DNA of 15,071 bases from a virus (Duplodnaviria; Heunggongvirae; Uroviricota; Caudoviricetes), in the IMG/VR virus record IMGVR_UViG_2713896831_000009, one strand, 5' to 3'. Position numbers: made by a program. Positions 9,601 to 15,071 of this stretch are shown in pieces (position 1 is the stretch's first letter; each line of letters begins with the position of its first letter).

Positions 9601-12600
9601 ATTCTGCAGGAAGACCAGGGACAATTACTGACTCTTGCCGGTGAACCTGACGGAAAACTCCGCGCAGCAGGTCGTTAATATCATACTTAATAAACTGATT
9701 ATTTATCTCATCACTGAATATCTTTATATAGTGAGGACTGATTATGTCTCATAACTTAGACGCAACCGCAATTAATCAAATCCATGCCCTTATTTCTGCT
9801 CAGGGTGTTAATGAAATCATCAGTAAGATTGGTGCCGATGCTGTGGCATTGCCTGAGAATTTCCGCATTCATGATCTGGAAAAATTTAATTTAAATCGTT
9901 TCCGTTTCCGTGGTGCGCTTTCCACTGCCAGCATCGATGACTTTACCCGTTATTCTAAAGATCTTGCAGATGAAGGCACCCGCTGCTTTATCGATGCCGA
10001 TAATATGCGTGCCGTCAGTGTGCTTAACCTGGGTACTATTGATGAGCCAGGTCACGCAGATAACACTGCCACTCTCAAACTGAAAAAGACAGCACCGTTC
10101 TCTGCTCTGTTGTCTGTTAATGGCGAGCGTAACTCCCAGAAGTCACTGGCAGAATGGATTGAAGACTGGGCCGACTACCTTGTGGGCTTTGATGCTAATG
10201 GTGACACCATTCAGGCAACCAAAGCGGCTGCGGCGATCCGTAAAATCACAATTGAAGCGAACCAGACCGCTGATTTTGAAGATAATGACTTCAGCGGCAA
10301 ACGCTCCCTGATGGAGTCTGTCGAAGCGAAGACCAAAGACATTATGCCAGTGGCATTTGAATTTAAATGCGTTCCGTTTGAAAGCTTGAAAGAACGTCCG
10401 TTTAAATTACGTCTCAGCATTATCACTGGCGATCGTCCTGTACTGGTTCTGCGCATTATTCAGCTGGAAGCGGTGCAGGAAGAAATGGCTAACGAATTTC
10501 GTGATCTGCTTGTTGAGAAATTCAAAGACAGCAAAGTAGAAACCTTTATTGGTACTTTCACCGCCTGATTTCATTACTGCAAATGCCCCTGCGGGGGCAT
10601 TTATGGAAACGTAATTAACTCAATAATCGCCGGATGGTAAGGGCTTCTTTTTACCAAAATTCAGTGCGGTGCAGCGCACATAACGTGGAGAACAAAATGT
10701 CATTTATTAAAACTTTTTCCGGGAAGCATTTTTATTATGACAAGATAAATAAAGACGACATCGTTATTAACGATATCGCGGTTTCCCTTTCAAATATCTG
10801 TCGCTTTGCAGGGCATCTTTCACACTTCTACAGCGTCGCCCAACATGCGGTGCTTTGCAGCCAGCTGGTACCGCAGGAATTTGCTTTTGAAGCGTTAATG
10901 CATGATGCAACAGAAGCATATTGCCAGGACATCCCCGCACCACTGAAACGACTTCTTCCTGACTATAAACGGATGGAAGAAAAAATAGACGCCGTAATCC
11001 GTGAGAAATACGGGTTACCCCCAGTTATGAGTACGCCCGTGAAATATGCCGATCTCATCATGCTGGCAACCGAACGCCGCGATCTCGGGCTTGATGATGG
11101 CTCTTTCTGGCCTGTACTGGAAGGCATCCCGGCAACAGAGATGTTCAACGTGATTCCACTGGCACCGGGTCATGCCTACGGGATGTTTATGGAACGTTTT
11201 AACGATTTATCGGAGTTACGCAAATGCGCATGAATATTTTCGAAATGGAAGGGTTTCTTCGCGGGAAATGTGTACCGCGAGATCTGAAAGTGAACGAAAC
11301 AAATGCTGAGTACCTGGTACGTAAATTCGACGCGCTTGAAGCTAAATGTGCGGCACTGGAAAACAAAATAATACCAGTGTCAGCTGAACTGCCACCAGCA
11401 AATGAAAGTGTTCTGTTATTTGATGCTAATGGAGAAGGCTGGCTGATTGGCTGGCGTTCTCTCTGGTACACCTGGGGACAAAAAGAAACCGGAGAATGGC
11501 AGTGGACATTTCAGGTCGGGGACCTTGAAAACGTCAATATCACTCACTGGGCAGTAATGCCAAAAGCACCGGAGGCTGGAGCATAATGACCACATTTACC
11601 AATAAAGAACTGATTAAAGAAATCAAAGAACGAATCAGCAGCCTAGAGGTTCGAGACGATATTGAGCGCCGTGCTTATGAAATTGCTCTGGCATCGCTAG
11701 AAGAGGAGCCGGTGGCATGGCTGCATTCAGAAAATGGCTTAGGTATTCCGGCAATAACGAGGAGTAAAAACATTGCTGACAGTTGGTTATCAAAGGGCTG
11801 GTATGTTCAGCCGCTATATATAGCCAAGCCAGTGCCGGTAGTGCCAGATGCTCGTCCGTCTTTAAATAATGGCATAGTCGGTTTTGATGAAGGCTGGAAC
11901 GCCTGCCGCGCCGCCATGCTTCATGGTGCCAAACCTGTAAACCAAACTTACAAGTCACCACACACGCTGTTTGAACAAGTTGCTGACCTCTACGAAATGC
12001 AATTTGATGACGGTCGCACTTGTGCCTTTCACACTGATGCGCAAAAGGCTGCGCAATGGCTTCAGGTGTGCGACGGAAACAGGGTTCAGGAATACGTTAA
12101 GCTGGAACGGCTGCAGAACGCGCTGTCTGGCAACTCTCCGGTAAGTCCGGGTGGTTGGATAAGCTGTAGTGAGCGAATGCCGAATGATAAACAGTATGTT
12201 TGGTGTTGGGGGAAGTCTTACGGCTGGACTGAGTGCGATACCTTCGAAGGGTATTACGATTGGTCGAGAAACAAATGGTGGGCAGTTACTGACAATGAGG
12301 AAGAACAGGCATCGAAAGTAACCCACTGGATGCCACTACCGGAGCCGCCGCAGGAGGTGAAGTAATGAACAACTTAATGACAACTAAACAAGTCGCCGAT
12401 TTCTGTGGTGTTTCAGTATCGACAGTTCTTCGCTGGAACAGCGTAAACAGGAGAACTGGTCAGAAATACAGGCCTGACTTTCCAGATCCTGATATTAAAT
12501 CCTGCCCAAATAAATGGGCATCACACAAGATTTACAGATTTGCGGGAGTGATTGAGTAATATGTATTAGCTTAGATGTGAGCTGACACATCTATGCTTAG

Positions 12601-15071
12601 ATACCAAACCTAATCTGAGCGTCCACTCTTTACCAAGAGCGGACGTTACCAATGACCATATGACATGAATCGATAAGATCAAAACATTATCGCCAAGAAA
12701 TGTCATACCATTGATACAAATAAAATTGATTACCCCCTTACTCTTGTTGAAAAGTTAGTCGTAGAGTACCTATCGCAATGTAATCAGCTTTAATCATCTT
12801 AAAATTACTCCTTAAAAATTAGCTTTTATATACTGAACAAATTAAATCTCTGTTTCTTTTCCTGCTCGGCTCAACCAATACTCCATTGTTTGAGTATGAA
12901 TCTTTTCAGCGTATATTTTATCAATTAATTTATCTTGTTTTTCTTTAATGACTTCACGCAGTGAATCATATAACATAAAAAAACGTTCATCATCTTCCTC
13001 ATTATTACCGTAATTTATTTGATTGAGCTCTGAAAAAATATGATAGTACCTTTTTTTCTTGGTCCCCGGCAATATTAAAACCAAACCACATTGATCATAT
13101 TCGAATTCACCTTTATGGGCAGCAAAGTTATGTCTAACATTCATAATAGAATCATGTAAATATCTGTATTTTTCTGGCACATGCTTTCTTTGTAATGTGA
13201 ATCGACGCCCTTTCGCCTCTGTAAAACACTTACCGTAAGTAACAACTTTTGATATAAATAAAGACTTTAATATTAGATTCTTTTCTAAATCCGGATAAAT
13301 AAAGTGTTGTTCTTTATTAATATTATTACAAATGTTTTTTATTATATTCTCCCAACCAATAACATTCCGAAGATCTTTATCAAGCAACTGTAAGGCCACA
13401 TATTGTTCTACAAAGCGGCCTTTTAAAGGTATTCGTGGTAATATTACACCTTTCTGCTTATAAATTCTTTCTATCGTATTATCTGGATATTGGATCTTCC
13501 TTATTTCTATTCCGTCTTCTTCTGATACCCTTACTAATGGTTCATTTTTTAACTTTGACATGTTAACCCTCTTAAATAAAAAACTAACTTTATCCAGATA
13601 GTGTCCGTTAAGAAGTTTTCGTTACAACTAAGTTTCTAGGTAAATCATGAATCGACCTATAGTATCAAAAACATTTGGTGGTAAACATCTGCATTTATCA
13701 AATGGCAGGAGCGATTTAGGGGCATAGGGATAGTGATGATATCGATACCCGCCCCCCTCTTATGTCAACACAATGGCGTAAACTTAACGCTCACATCTCG
13801 CTCAAAGTGTGCTAGGAGATTTGGTTATGTTCAGGTGATACAAACCGTCAGTTTGAATCAGAGATAGTACAATTAACAATCGATTCAACCCTCTTCCACC
13901 ATGCCAAGTAAGCTTTACGCTGTTCTTCTAGATAATCGCTCTTATCATAAACTTGCCATACCCCTGGCAGCTTATGACCAAGCATAATTTCTGCGATATG
14001 AGGCGCAGTAAGATCAGAAAAATTTGTTCGAGCTGTACGTCTCAAGTCATGAAGAGACCAATGAGGGAATTGATATCCTAAACACCGCCATGCGTACTGC
14101 ATTAAATTGTAAGGCAGCGACTGCAATGATGTCCGACCAACGGGTTCCCTGCTTCCTTCCTTAGTAAAAAGCATATCGGAACCATTGTTCATAGAGATAG
14201 CGTACTTTATAAGCTCTTCAACCGGTTCAATAATGGGCCGCTTTAGCGGTTCACCTGTTATCTCCCCTGTCTTATGTCGTTCTGGTGGTACAGTCCATAC
14301 TTTATTAATGAAATCAAAATCGTCCACCCGGGCGGTAATTAGCTCTGAACTACGGCAACCAAAATGCAGCAATAGTTTAATGAAGGCCCGGTATTTAGGA
14401 ACCATTCGAGAACCATCGATCGCAGCATAAAGGATTTTAATTTCATCATGTGTCAGAAACCGTTTCTTCTGACCTTTACGGATATCCATATCTTTACCCG
14501 TGATATCCGACAGCGGGCGAGTTTCAATGAGCTTTCTCTTATACGCCCAGACATGGGCCTGCTTTGCGTTAATTAGCAATCGGTCTGCTATTGCTGGAGT
14601 CTTAGTGCTAAGAGGCTCCAGGACTTCTAACCAATCATGCAATGTAGCTGCATCGTGAGGGATATTCCCGATTTTAGAGAACAGGTGCAGCTCAAACGAG
14701 CGAAGTATCTGCTCAGAACCTTTTTTATTTTTTACACAATATGCTTCATACCAAGCACGGATCACAGACTCTACCGTCATGGCTTCAGTAGCTTTTCGTT
14801 TTTCAGCCTGCTTGACCAATCGTGGATTACGGTTTGACTCGAGTTCACCACGAAGACGGATAACTTCTTCTCTGGCCTCTTTTAATCCAGTTGCCGGGTA
14901 AGTTCCGATATCAAGACGCTCACCTTTCCCTGCCCATTGATAACGATATTGGAACACTACGCGACCTTTCGGTGATACTCTGACAGACAGACCATCACGA
15001 TCGGATTTAACCAAAACCTTATCACGTTCCTTTCCAACGACTGAACGCAACCACGCATCAGACAGCGCCAT

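What the first reader, a model, noticed from the sequence alone, without database searches (positions are those of the whole stretch)
12560..13847. AT-rich orphan gene between excisionase and integrase: candidate single-gene defence or exclusion moron
The 239-aa ORF (12842-13561, minus) is compositionally foreign: it and its flanks are far more AT-rich than the phage backbone, which marks later acquisition. It sits in the int-proximal slot where temperate phages commonly carry accessory cargo. I recognise no family. The only motif I can point to is a single R-x5-H (VRHNFAAH), compatible with, but not diagnostic of, a HEPN-type RNase as in Abi-like abortive-infection proteins. The two near-perfect hairpins just downstream of xis (12569-12596 and 12620-12645) may insulate this gene from early-operon readthrough.
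Basis: partly seen in the sequence, partly recalled or inferred. Interest (0 to 1): 0.7.

Follow-up and report, generated by a model that had tools for sequence, protein, structure and literature searches.

The report
Prophage cargo gene: likely HEPN defence nuclease
An AT-rich 239-codon gene sits in a swap-prone slot between the excisionase and integrase genes of an E. coli prophage, where sister prophages carry known anti-phage systems. It belongs to a large unnamed protein family that looks like a stand-alone HEPN-type RNA-cutting defence protein, but no function has been shown.

Summary
ORF 12842-13561 (-) is a real gene under purifying selection (dN/dS 0.10-0.18). Its GC content is 0.307 against 0.486±0.044 for the rest of the window (z -4.1).

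It is not an orphan. A profile search finds 925 clusters (at 50% identity) of relatives, all unannotated, with no Pfam, NCBIfam or PADLOC family; PHROG 8440 has unknown function.

The xis|int slot is a true cargo hotspot. Prophages at the same yjjG site, with about 95-97% identical integrases, carry instead Borvo, dGTPase, PDC-M01 or at least five other unknown cargos. Relatives also sit directly after int at the edge of P2/186-like prophages, at a Cronobacter prophage end, in a Vibrio filamentous phage, and as an integron cassette. No partner gene is conserved.

Two AlphaFold models (pLDDT 87 and 90) give a four-helix bundle. The invariant R143-[H/N/D]-x4-H149 lies at the end of helix 3, which is the HEPN signature position. 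Only sub-threshold Pfam hits exist, to HEPN_AbiU2 and centred on that motif.

Best reading (about 0.5): a self-contained HEPN-like abortive-infection RNase, analogous to HepS or AbiU2.

The two hairpins are real. They lack U-tracts and are not conserved in sister prophages, so the insulation idea is unsupported.

Verdict: a new member of a known kind, of moderate interest.

The parts
12842..13561 (-). 239-aa cargo gene (stop codon included); predicted N-terminal beta-meander plus a four-helix HEPN-like bundle with a beta-hairpin insert
   Evidence: ORF list and translation. dN/dS 0.10-0.18 against phage 2H10, E. coli 2012C-4221 and Cronobacter copies. PHROG 8440 at 1.8e-141. AF2 model with pLDDT 87.4.
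13115..13135 (-). Codons for R143-H144-N-F-A-A-H149, the candidate HEPN Rx4-6H active-site motif at the C-terminal end of helix 3
   Evidence: Across 136 diverse relatives, R143 is present in 136/136 and H149 in 135/136. Position 144 is H in 78, N in 56 and D in 2. Helix 3 spans residues 130-148 in the model. The same placement is seen in the distant member P0204.
13562..13718 (-). Upstream leader and putative own promoter that travels with the ORF. Shine-Dalgarno AAGAGGG at 13573-13567; possible extended -10 TGaTACTAT at 13667-13659 (putative only).
   Evidence: Nucleotide homology to the Cronobacter copy, which sits in a different prophage position, covers only 12834-13718. The consensus promoter scan found no strong sigma-70 site on this strand. 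The leader shows no significant RNA structure (z -0.44) and no Rfam match.
12620..13847 (.). Swappable cargo cassette: the segment replaced by other genes in sister prophages
   Evidence: Backbone homology to seven sister prophages or phages ends at 12569-12652 and resumes at 13817-13866, which is the int stop codon region.
12568..12597 (.). Hairpin 1: 8-bp perfect stem plus extension, 6-nt loop, directly after the xis stop; lies in backbone sequence
   Evidence: -15.8 and -16.4 kcal/mol, z -4.0 and -5.2. No U-tract. The sequence is shared with cdtI, Stx2c, APEC O1 and O8:H8 prophages, but pairing is not conserved.
12620..12646 (.). Hairpin 2: 11-12-bp stem, 4-nt loop, at the backbone/cargo junction
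   Evidence: -16.4 kcal/mol on the + strand; -19.1 on the - strand, where the mismatch becomes G-U. No U-tract on either strand. Its right arm is specific to this cargo version.
12365..12559 (+). Excisionase-like HTH gene; left border of the slot and last gene of the rightward early operon
   Evidence: NCBIfam Xis_Gifsy_1 at 2.7e-4 and excise domain at 5e-3, both below cut-off. Annotated as excisionase in phages 2H10 and cdtI.
13848..15071 (-). Tyrosine integrase (407 aa); right border of the slot, co-oriented with and upstream of the cargo gene. The attachment site lies beyond the window, next to yjjG.
   Evidence: Present in 700 of 5426 complete E. coli genomes at about 95-100% identity.

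Best explanation
The gene is horizontally acquired prophage cargo. It encodes a self-contained, single-protein anti-phage (abortive-infection type) effector with a HEPN-like ribonuclease core.

Inferred mechanism: it is expressed in the lysogen, either from its own upstream region or by read-through from int. The protein is held inactive until an infecting phage provides a trigger, which the N-terminal beta domain and/or the beta-hairpin insert may sense. Two protomers then bring their R143-x5-H149 motifs together, helped by the invariant H136, R119 and Y109, and cut RNA (tRNA or mRNA) without metal. This stops translation and phage growth.

Shown here: it is a real, conserved gene; it is foreign cargo in a swap hotspot that elsewhere holds known defence systems; it needs no conserved partner gene; it has a HEPN-like topology with the signature motif in the signature place.

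Inferred, not shown: RNase activity, dimerisation, trigger, target and any defence phenotype.
For: Gene reality and spread:
- Purifying selection: dN/dS 0.10-0.18.
- 925 related clusters at E<=1e-3, 398 of them at E<=1e-10.

Hotspot evidence:
- The integrase is in 700 of 5426 E. coli genomes but the cassette in only 71.
- The same slot holds Borvo BovA (2e-241), dGTPase (8e-105), PDC-M01A/B (1.6e-247 and 4.8e-111), a DUF4365 nuclease-like gene and four further unknown cargos.

Independent mobile contexts:
- Directly after int, overlapping it, at the edge of P2/186-like prophages in Enterobacter and Yersinia. PMC13586616 describes this int-att position as a minor defence hotspot of P2.
- At a Cronobacter lambdoid prophage end.
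- In a Vibrio inovirus.
- As an integron cassette bounded by attC repeats in Photobacterium.
- Next to a TacAT toxin-antitoxin pair and CBASS in Vibrio alginolyticus.
- Among the two nearest neighbours either side in 34 loci: AriB, Lamassu, HEC-03, PD-Lambda-3, a CBASS cyclase and PD-T4-6.
- No conserved partner gene in 41 loci.

Fold and motif:
- Two independent AF2 models have the same topology (window protein pLDDT 87; the ~18%-identical P0204 pLDDT 90).
[quoted passage not shown] These are the HEPN hallmarks stated in PMC3710099.
- HEPN_AbiU2 is the only Pfam family hit by more than three of 136 members (6 members, best E 0.0022). In both proteins whose match region was checked (P0155 from that set; P0204, a relative outside it) the match is centred on the motif helix.

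Precedents: HepS, a solo prophage HEPN Abi (PMC13043305), and a V. mimicus integron cassette with a HEPN AbiU2 domain that protects against T4 and T7 (bioRxiv 10.64898/2026.03.17.712381).
Against: - No curated profile reaches threshold. The best HEPN_AbiU2 score is about 15 bits against a gathering score of 26.8, and the window protein itself has no HEPN hit.
- PADLOC gives nothing for the protein or its family.
- The conserved acidic residue (D63, in an E-K-D-L-R motif) lies in the first long helix, not helix 2 as described for HEPN.
- The neighbourhood evidence has no matched control, and many neighbours are housekeeping genes.
- There is no experimental data and no paper mentions the protein.
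Confidence: 0.5

Rival explanations
1. A non-catalytic or differently acting helical-bundle moron. The protein would bind a phage or host component, for example in superinfection exclusion, regulation or RNA binding like non-catalytic HEPN proteins, without cutting RNA.
For: The fold search cannot separate HEPN from generic four-helix bundles, including ligand-binding chemoreceptor domains and chaperone-like FliS. No profile reaches threshold. The extra beta elements could form a binding surface.
Against: Invariance of R143, H149, H136, R119 and Y109 at 19% mean column identity points to catalysis rather than binding alone. The R-[H/N/D]-x4-H pattern and its position match the HEPN active site.
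Confidence: 0.17
2. A toxin of an addiction (toxin-antitoxin) module that stabilises the prophage or cassette. The antitoxin would be unrecognised, for example a small RNA or tiny ORF in the conserved 157-nt upstream block.
For: HEPN proteins are frequent TA toxins (PMC3710099). A roughly 90-nt upstream block is conserved between the E. coli and Cronobacter copies. The V. mimicus AbiU2-domain cassette could not be cloned alone. Integron cassette arrays are rich in TA modules.
Against: No conserved neighbouring ORF in 41 loci. In P2-like prophages the gene overlaps the int stop codon, leaving no room for an upstream element. The leader has no significant structure and no Rfam match. An IS1-like element interrupts this 1.3-kb region in one genome, though whether inside the gene was not checked, and the gene is absent from 90% of sister prophages, so loss is tolerated.
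Confidence: 0.1
3. A counter-defence or phage-fitness gene that acts for the phage during lytic growth, for example by degrading host RNAs or immune messengers, rather than protecting the lysogen.
For: Phage accessory slots also carry anti-defence genes. The gene is carried by phages of three unrelated types.
Against: It is co-oriented with int, and in 186-like prophages with cI-int. That unit is expressed in lysogens; this is an inference from what is known of coliphage 186. It also occurs outside phages, in integron cassettes and chromosomal islands next to defence systems. The alternative cargos of the same slot are defence systems, not anti-defence genes.
Confidence: 0.08
4. A chance ORF or decaying remnant in AT-rich junk DNA.
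For: AT-rich DNA yields long ORFs rarely, but it yields promoter-like noise often. No annotation exists.
Against: dN/dS 0.10-0.18 at dS up to 0.70. Hundreds of full-length relatives down to about 20% identity keep invariant residues. The structure prediction is confident.
Confidence: 0.01

Closest known systems
HepS (HEPN Solo defence element of Salmonella prophage Gifsy-1; PMC13043305)
   Same: A single small protein (<250 aa) with an Rx4-6H motif. It is encoded in an accessory slot of a lambdoid prophage, has no partner or inhibitor gene, and is often prophage-borne. This is the best model for how the window protein might work: a resting oligomer, activated by a phage structural protein, that cleaves the tRNA anticodon loop.
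HEPN_AbiU2 (Pfam PF18734; AbiU2 of Lactococcus; Anantharaman et al. 2013, PMC3710099)
   Same: It is the only curated family with recurrent, though weak, matches to members of this family, and the matches are centred on the H...R-x5-H helix. It is an Abi-associated stand-alone HEPN. A V. mimicus integron cassette with this domain protects against T4 and T7, and this family too occurs as an integron cassette.
   Different: All matches are below Pfam's gathering score (about 15 against 26.8 bits), occur in only 6 of 136 members, and cover only about 30 of 193 profile positions. The window protein itself does not match.
HepT/MNT-associated HEPN toxins (e.g. 7ae2, 5yep) and integron-cassette HEPN (3jrt)
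Defence hotspots of temperate phages (P2/P4 hotspots, PMC9122126 and PMC13586616)
   Same: A fixed position between conserved phage genes where unrelated, AT-rich defence cargos replace each other. The P2 int-att hotspot holds members of this family.
   Different: The hotspot here is the xis|int junction of a lambdoid prophage family integrated next to yjjG. I did not find this slot described in the papers searched.

Membership tests
HEPN superfamily | All-alpha core of four helices in an up-down bundle, with a variable insert between helices 2 and 3 | tested here: met
HEPN superfamily | [quoted passage not shown] | tested here: met
   R143 in 136/136 and H149 in 135/136 relatives, spacing x5, with helix 3 ending at residue 148. 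In P0204, R117 and H123 flank a helix end at 121. Criterion taken from PMC3710099.
HEPN superfamily | Polar residue (N, D or H) immediately after the motif arginine | tested here: met
   Position 144 is H in 78, N in 56 and D in 2 of 136 sequences, with nothing else.
HEPN superfamily | Upstream conserved acidic residue, typically Ex3[KR], in helix 2 near the active site | tested here: inconclusive
   An E61-K-D63-L-R65 motif exists and D63 is present in 134/136, but it lies in the first long helix (49-79).
HEPN superfamily | Significant profile similarity to a recognised HEPN family | tested here: inconclusive
   HEPN_AbiU2 is hit by 6 of 136 members, best E 0.0022, all below the gathering score, and the window protein gives no hit. 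No PDB sequence hit. A profile-profile (HHpred) test could not be run for lack of AbiU2 sequences.
HEPN superfamily | Dimer that juxtaposes two Rx4-6H motifs; metal-independent RNase leaving a 2',3'-cyclic phosphate | not testable with these tools
   Only single-chain prediction is available, and no biochemistry.
HEPN_AbiU2 (PF18734) | Score at or above Pfam's gathering threshold (26.8 bits) | tested here: not met
   No hit for the window protein at E<=10. The examined hits score 15.2 bits (P0155, family member) and 13.7 bits (P0204, a relative outside the 136-sequence set).
HepS family | Sequence homology to Gifsy-1 HepS (Rx4H at 100-105) | tested here: inconclusive
Known anti-phage defence systems (PADLOC-DB v2) | Match to a defence-system protein model | tested here: not met
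   0 hits for the protein. Only scattered single weak hits across 136 relatives.
Phage defence-hotspot cargo | Occupies a position between conserved phage genes where unrelated cargos, including known defence systems, alternate | tested here: met
   Nine different cargos occur next to integrases that are 95-97% identical, and three match PADLOC models: two described defence systems (Borvo, dGTPase) and the PADLOC candidate system PDC-M01.
Type II toxin-antitoxin module | Conserved adjacent partner gene | tested here: not met
   Clustering of flanking ORFs within ±3 kb in 41 loci finds only integrase (4 loci) and one unrelated gene pair (3 loci).
Intrinsic (Rho-independent) terminator, for the two hairpins | G+C-rich stem followed by a U-tract | tested here: not met
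   The scan calls no terminator at 12560-12660 on either strand. The sequence after both stems lacks T-runs. There is no conserved structure in the 8-sequence alignment.

The most novel reading that the evidence does not exclude
The family may not be a conventional HEPN RNase. It could be a new enzyme type built on a helical bundle, whose invariant Y109-K111...R119...H136...R143...H149 constellation, together with the fused beta-sheet module, both senses a phage component and carries out a different reaction, such as tRNA or nucleotide modification or DNA nicking. Under that reading it would define a new single-gene immunity mechanism that spreads through lambdoid, P2-like and filamentous phages and through integron cassettes.
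Probability: 0.12. Interest if true: 0.75.

Novelty: new member of a known kind. Interest (0 to 1): 0.45.

Why it matters
If confirmed, this would add a widespread family to the catalogue of single-protein HEPN abortive-infection defences. The family has at least 925 clusters at 50% identity and occurs mainly in Gamma- and Betaproteobacteria. Pfam, NCBIfam and PADLOC v2 do not recognise it, and no paper in the searched library mentions it.

The work also delimits a clean defence hotspot: the xis|int junction of yjjG-site lambdoid prophages, whose integrase is present in about 13% of complete E. coli genomes. Five or more further cargos in that slot have no annotation, so it is a compact hunting ground for new systems.

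The family moves between very different vehicles (lambdoid, P2-like, inovirus, integron cassette). That makes it a useful case for studying how single-gene defences travel.

Tried and rejected
- Pfam, NCBIfam and PADLOC scans of the protein gave nothing useful. PHROGs gave only an unknown-function family.
- Profile searches of PDB sequences with 25- and 136-sequence alignments gave only chance hits.
- Foldseek against PDB and BFVD found nothing at E<0.001. The afdb50 library was unavailable.
- Consensus sequences of the family and its sub-clusters did not improve the Pfam signal.
- I tried to bridge to Pfam-annotated HEPN_AbiU2 proteins using the last two homologue searches. There were no hits between E 1e-14 and 10, and no hit carried a Pfam domain.
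- I tried to obtain AbiU2 or HepS sequences for a profile-profile test. The supplement of PMC3710099 is only an index page. The V. mimicus cassette sequence is not in the supplements. The ORF tried from LT2 Gifsy-1 (35983-36582) gave no PDB hit.
- The hairpins as terminators or a conserved RNA element are rejected. The leader as a structured RNA is rejected.
- A conserved partner or antitoxin is rejected.
- A PLD-type HxK motif and a tyrosine-recombinase-like catalytic set were considered from the invariant residues. Both were rejected by inspection of the sequence, because spacing and order do not fit.
- Literature look-ups by accession, PHROG id and peptide strings found nothing.
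Full report
1. THE OBSERVATION

The window is the early/immunity arm of a lambdoid prophage integrated next to yjjG. A 100% identical copy of the finding's region lies in E. coli GN4554. Its neighbourhood reads ymfK/ymfT/ymfL, yfdP-yfdR, DUF551, xis, the ORF, int, then yjjG-rimI-holD. Phage 2H10 (NC_049950) has the same arrangement at 98% identity.

ORF 12842-13561 (-) encodes 239 aa and has a strong ribosome-binding site. Its GC content is 0.307 (GC3 0.25). 720-nt windows in the rest of the window average 0.486±0.044, so z = -4.1, the lowest value in the window.

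It is a real gene. Against the copies in phage 2H10, E. coli 2012C-4221 and Cronobacter, dN/dS is 0.10-0.18 with dS up to 0.70.

Both hairpins exist, at 12568-12597 and 12620-12646. Their free energies are -16 to -19 kcal/mol and z is -4 to -5 against shuffles.

2. NOT AN ORPHAN

Curated libraries are silent. Pfam gives only noise, PADLOC and NCBIfam give nothing, and PHROG 8440 has unknown function.

The word-indexed search found 25 relatives in Enterobacterales. The exhaustive profile search found 925 representative clusters at E<=1e-3, of which 398 are at <=1e-10 and 63 at <=1e-30. A motif-anchored scan of one genome per species found 39 loci, mostly in Gamma- and Betaproteobacteria. Every named member is 'hypothetical protein'. 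The exact protein is seen on 353 contigs, and a close variant on at least 1000.

3. THE SLOT IS A CARGO HOTSPOT

The integrase is present at about 95-100% nucleotide identity in 700 of 5426 complete E. coli genomes. The 1.3-kb cassette is present in only 71.

I sampled integrase-positive genomes and related phages. Between xis/DUF551 and int they carry:
- Borvo BovA in phage cdtI (PADLOC 2.3e-241);
- a defence dGTPase in O157:H7 FRIK944 (8.2e-105);
- the two-gene candidate system PDC-M01 in an O8:H8 strain (1.6e-247 and 4.8e-111);
- a DUF4365 protein in ETEC6334;
- a three-gene set with a STAS-like protein in ETEC1717;
- two small unknown genes in O145:H28;
- a 331-aa unknown protein in APEC O1;
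- a 517-aa putative membrane protein in Stx2c phages;
- the same 239-aa gene in strain 2012C-4221.

Backbone homology stops at window 12569-12652 and resumes at 13817-13866, which is the int stop codon region. The replaced segment is therefore about 12620-13847.

The Cronobacter copy lies at the other end of a different lambdoid prophage, after umuDC-like genes. It shares nucleotide homology only over 12834-13718. The unit that moves is therefore the ORF plus about 157 nt upstream, presumably carrying its own promoter and leader. It does not include the hairpins.

4. OTHER CONTEXTS

In Enterobacter and Yersinia the homologue starts 17-20 nt before the int stop codon, at the very edge of P2/186-like prophages. 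It follows cI and int on the same strand. In Yersinia sp. HM-2024 a PARIS AriB homologue lies just before int. PMC13586616 reports the int-att interval as a minor defence hotspot of P2.

A 27%-identical relative is cargo of a Vibrio filamentous phage. In V. alginolyticus the gene lies beside a TacAT toxin-antitoxin pair and two CBASS operons. In Photobacterium sp. J15 it is a single-gene integron cassette, bounded by two of about 17 attC-like repeats.

I clustered flanking ORFs from 41 loci. No conserved partner emerged: integrase recurs in 4 loci and one unrelated gene pair in 3.

Among the two nearest neighbours on either side in 34 loci there are strong PADLOC matches to Lamassu, HEC-03, PD-Lambda-3, a CBASS cyclase, NsnB and PD-T4-6. 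There are also ordinary housekeeping genes. I had no matched control, so this is descriptive only.

5. WHAT THE PROTEIN LOOKS LIKE

AlphaFold2 with 24 homologues gives pLDDT 87.4 and pTM 0.76. The order of elements is:
- an N-terminal three-stranded beta-meander (residues 9-36);
- helix 1 (49-79);
- helix 2 (92-111);
- a conserved loop (112-129);
- helix 3 (130-148);
- a beta-hairpin (157-180);
- helix 4 (188-221).

An independent model of P0204, which is about 18% identical, gives the same order with pLDDT 89.6.

In a 136-sequence alignment with 19% mean column identity, the invariant residues are Y109, R119, H136 and R143. D63, W70, K111, F113, A148, H149, G151 and L197 are at least 90% conserved. 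The residue after R143 is H in 78 sequences, N in 56 and D in 2, and never anything else.

Anantharaman et al. [quoted passage not shown] All three features are met here.

When all 136 members are scanned against Pfam, HEPN_AbiU2 is the only family hit by more than three of them: 6 members, best E 0.0022. I checked the match region in two proteins, P0155 from that set and P0204, a relative outside it. In both, the match covers profile positions about 112-142 of 193 and the H...R-x5-H helix of the protein. These scores are below Pfam's threshold, so membership of PF18734 is not established.

6. MECHANISM

Best-supported reading: a stand-alone HEPN-like RNase that acts as a prophage-borne abortive-infection or defence protein. 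The functional model comes from two precedents.
- HepS of Gifsy-1 is a solo HEPN protein with no partner. It rests as an inactive oligomer, is activated by siphovirus tail-tip protein, and cleaves tRNA anticodon loops (PMC13043305).
- A V. mimicus integron cassette with a HEPN AbiU2 domain protects against T4 and T7 and could not be cloned alone (bioRxiv 10.64898/2026.03.17.712381).

Expression in the lysogen is inferred from two things. The gene is co-oriented with int, and in 186-like phages with the cI-int lysogenic unit; this rests on established knowledge of coliphage 186. In addition, the upstream block travels with the ORF. That block contains only a weak extended -10-like TGaTACTAT at 13667-13659, and the consensus scan called no promoter there.

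RNase activity, oligomerisation, trigger and target are all inferred.

7. THE HAIRPINS

Neither hairpin is followed by a U-tract on either strand, and the terminator scan calls nothing there. Hairpin 1 lies in sequence shared with prophages carrying other cargos. Hairpin 2 straddles the junction. Across eight sister sequences RNAalifold finds no common structure (-3.5 kcal/mol). Most sisters instead have a different inverted repeat, GGCACAGAGC...GCTCTGTGCC. Rfam finds nothing in 12500-13900. They may still slow read-through from the early operon, but there is no comparative support and they are not part of the gene's mobile unit.

8. COMPARISON AND NOVELTY

Single-protein HEPN defences on prophages are a known kind: HepS, AbiU2, AbiD/F, ApeA and Tha. 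Cargo hotspots next to int are also known. New here is an unnamed, sizeable family with extra beta elements and Rx5H spacing. Also new is the delimitation of the xis|int hotspot of yjjG-site lambdoid prophages, which has several more unknown cargos. I found no paper that mentions the protein.

I file it as a new member of a known kind, interest 0.45. Confidence in the full HEPN-defence reading is about 0.5. I estimate HEPN fold and active site at about 0.7, and defence or exclusion cargo of some kind at about 0.7.

Noticed in passing
Sister loci L018:2924-3900, L019:2621-3616, L024:1294-3203, L017:4487-6040, L021:2210-3229: The same xis|int slot in other yjjG-site prophages holds at least five cargos with no strong PADLOC match. 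They are two small genes (160 and 150 aa, O145:H28), a 331-aa protein (APEC O1), a three-gene set including a STAS-like protein (ETEC1717), a 517-aa putative membrane protein (Stx2c phages), and a DUF4365 protein with only a weak PADLOC hit at 8.9e-09 (ETEC6334). All are candidates for new defence systems.
   Followed up: partly
window 6544-6631 (-) and 6656-6732 (-): Rfam gathering-level matches to C4 antisense RNA (80.7 bits) and the IsrK Hfq-binding sRNA (56.7 bits). They lie side by side inside or upstream of the 'ash family' ORF of the early region, as in P1/P7-type immunity and Gifsy-type anti-Q control.
   Followed up: no
window 1001-2000, ORF 1322-1768 (+): A second AT-rich island (GC about 0.37-0.38) holds a 148-aa hypothetical gene on the opposite strand to its neighbours, next to the Q antiterminator gene. 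It is another likely moron.
   Followed up: no
L025:6885-7788 (Photobacterium sp. J15): The homologue is a one-gene integron cassette. It is bounded by two copies of a roughly 100-nt attC-like repeat that occurs 16-18 times at 0.5-1.5 kb spacing in the 14.7-kb locus.
   Followed up: yes
window 13848-15071 and beyond the right end: int is transcribed inward from the attachment-site end, next to yjjG, and converges on the rightward early operon that ends with xis. xis and int are therefore on opposite strands with the cargo between them, unlike the lambda int-xis arrangement.
   Followed up: partly
alignment A7, corresponding to window 12590-12640: Most sister prophages carry a different 10-bp inverted repeat (GGCACAGAGC ... 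GCTCTGTGCC, about 22-nt loop) just after xis. In this window that repeat is replaced by hairpin 2, so the recombination junction seems to keep some palindrome but not a particular one.
   Followed up: partly
E. coli DETEC-S792 (NZ_CP116067.1, hit H51): In one genome the 1.3-kb cassette region is split into two pieces by an IS1-like element, IS1B family (its transposase gene is annotated under the match).
   Followed up: no
L001:5902-6639 (Vibrio phage 10N.286.54.E4_PE002, an inovirus): The 27%-identical relative carried by a filamentous phage has the depositor's note 'endonuclease'. The basis for that note is unknown.
   Followed up: no
L028:3958-6699 (Yersinia sp. HM-2024): In a P2-like prophage, a PARIS AriB-like DUF4435 gene, int and the family member lie in a row at the prophage edge, so two cargo positions flank int.
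   Followed up: no
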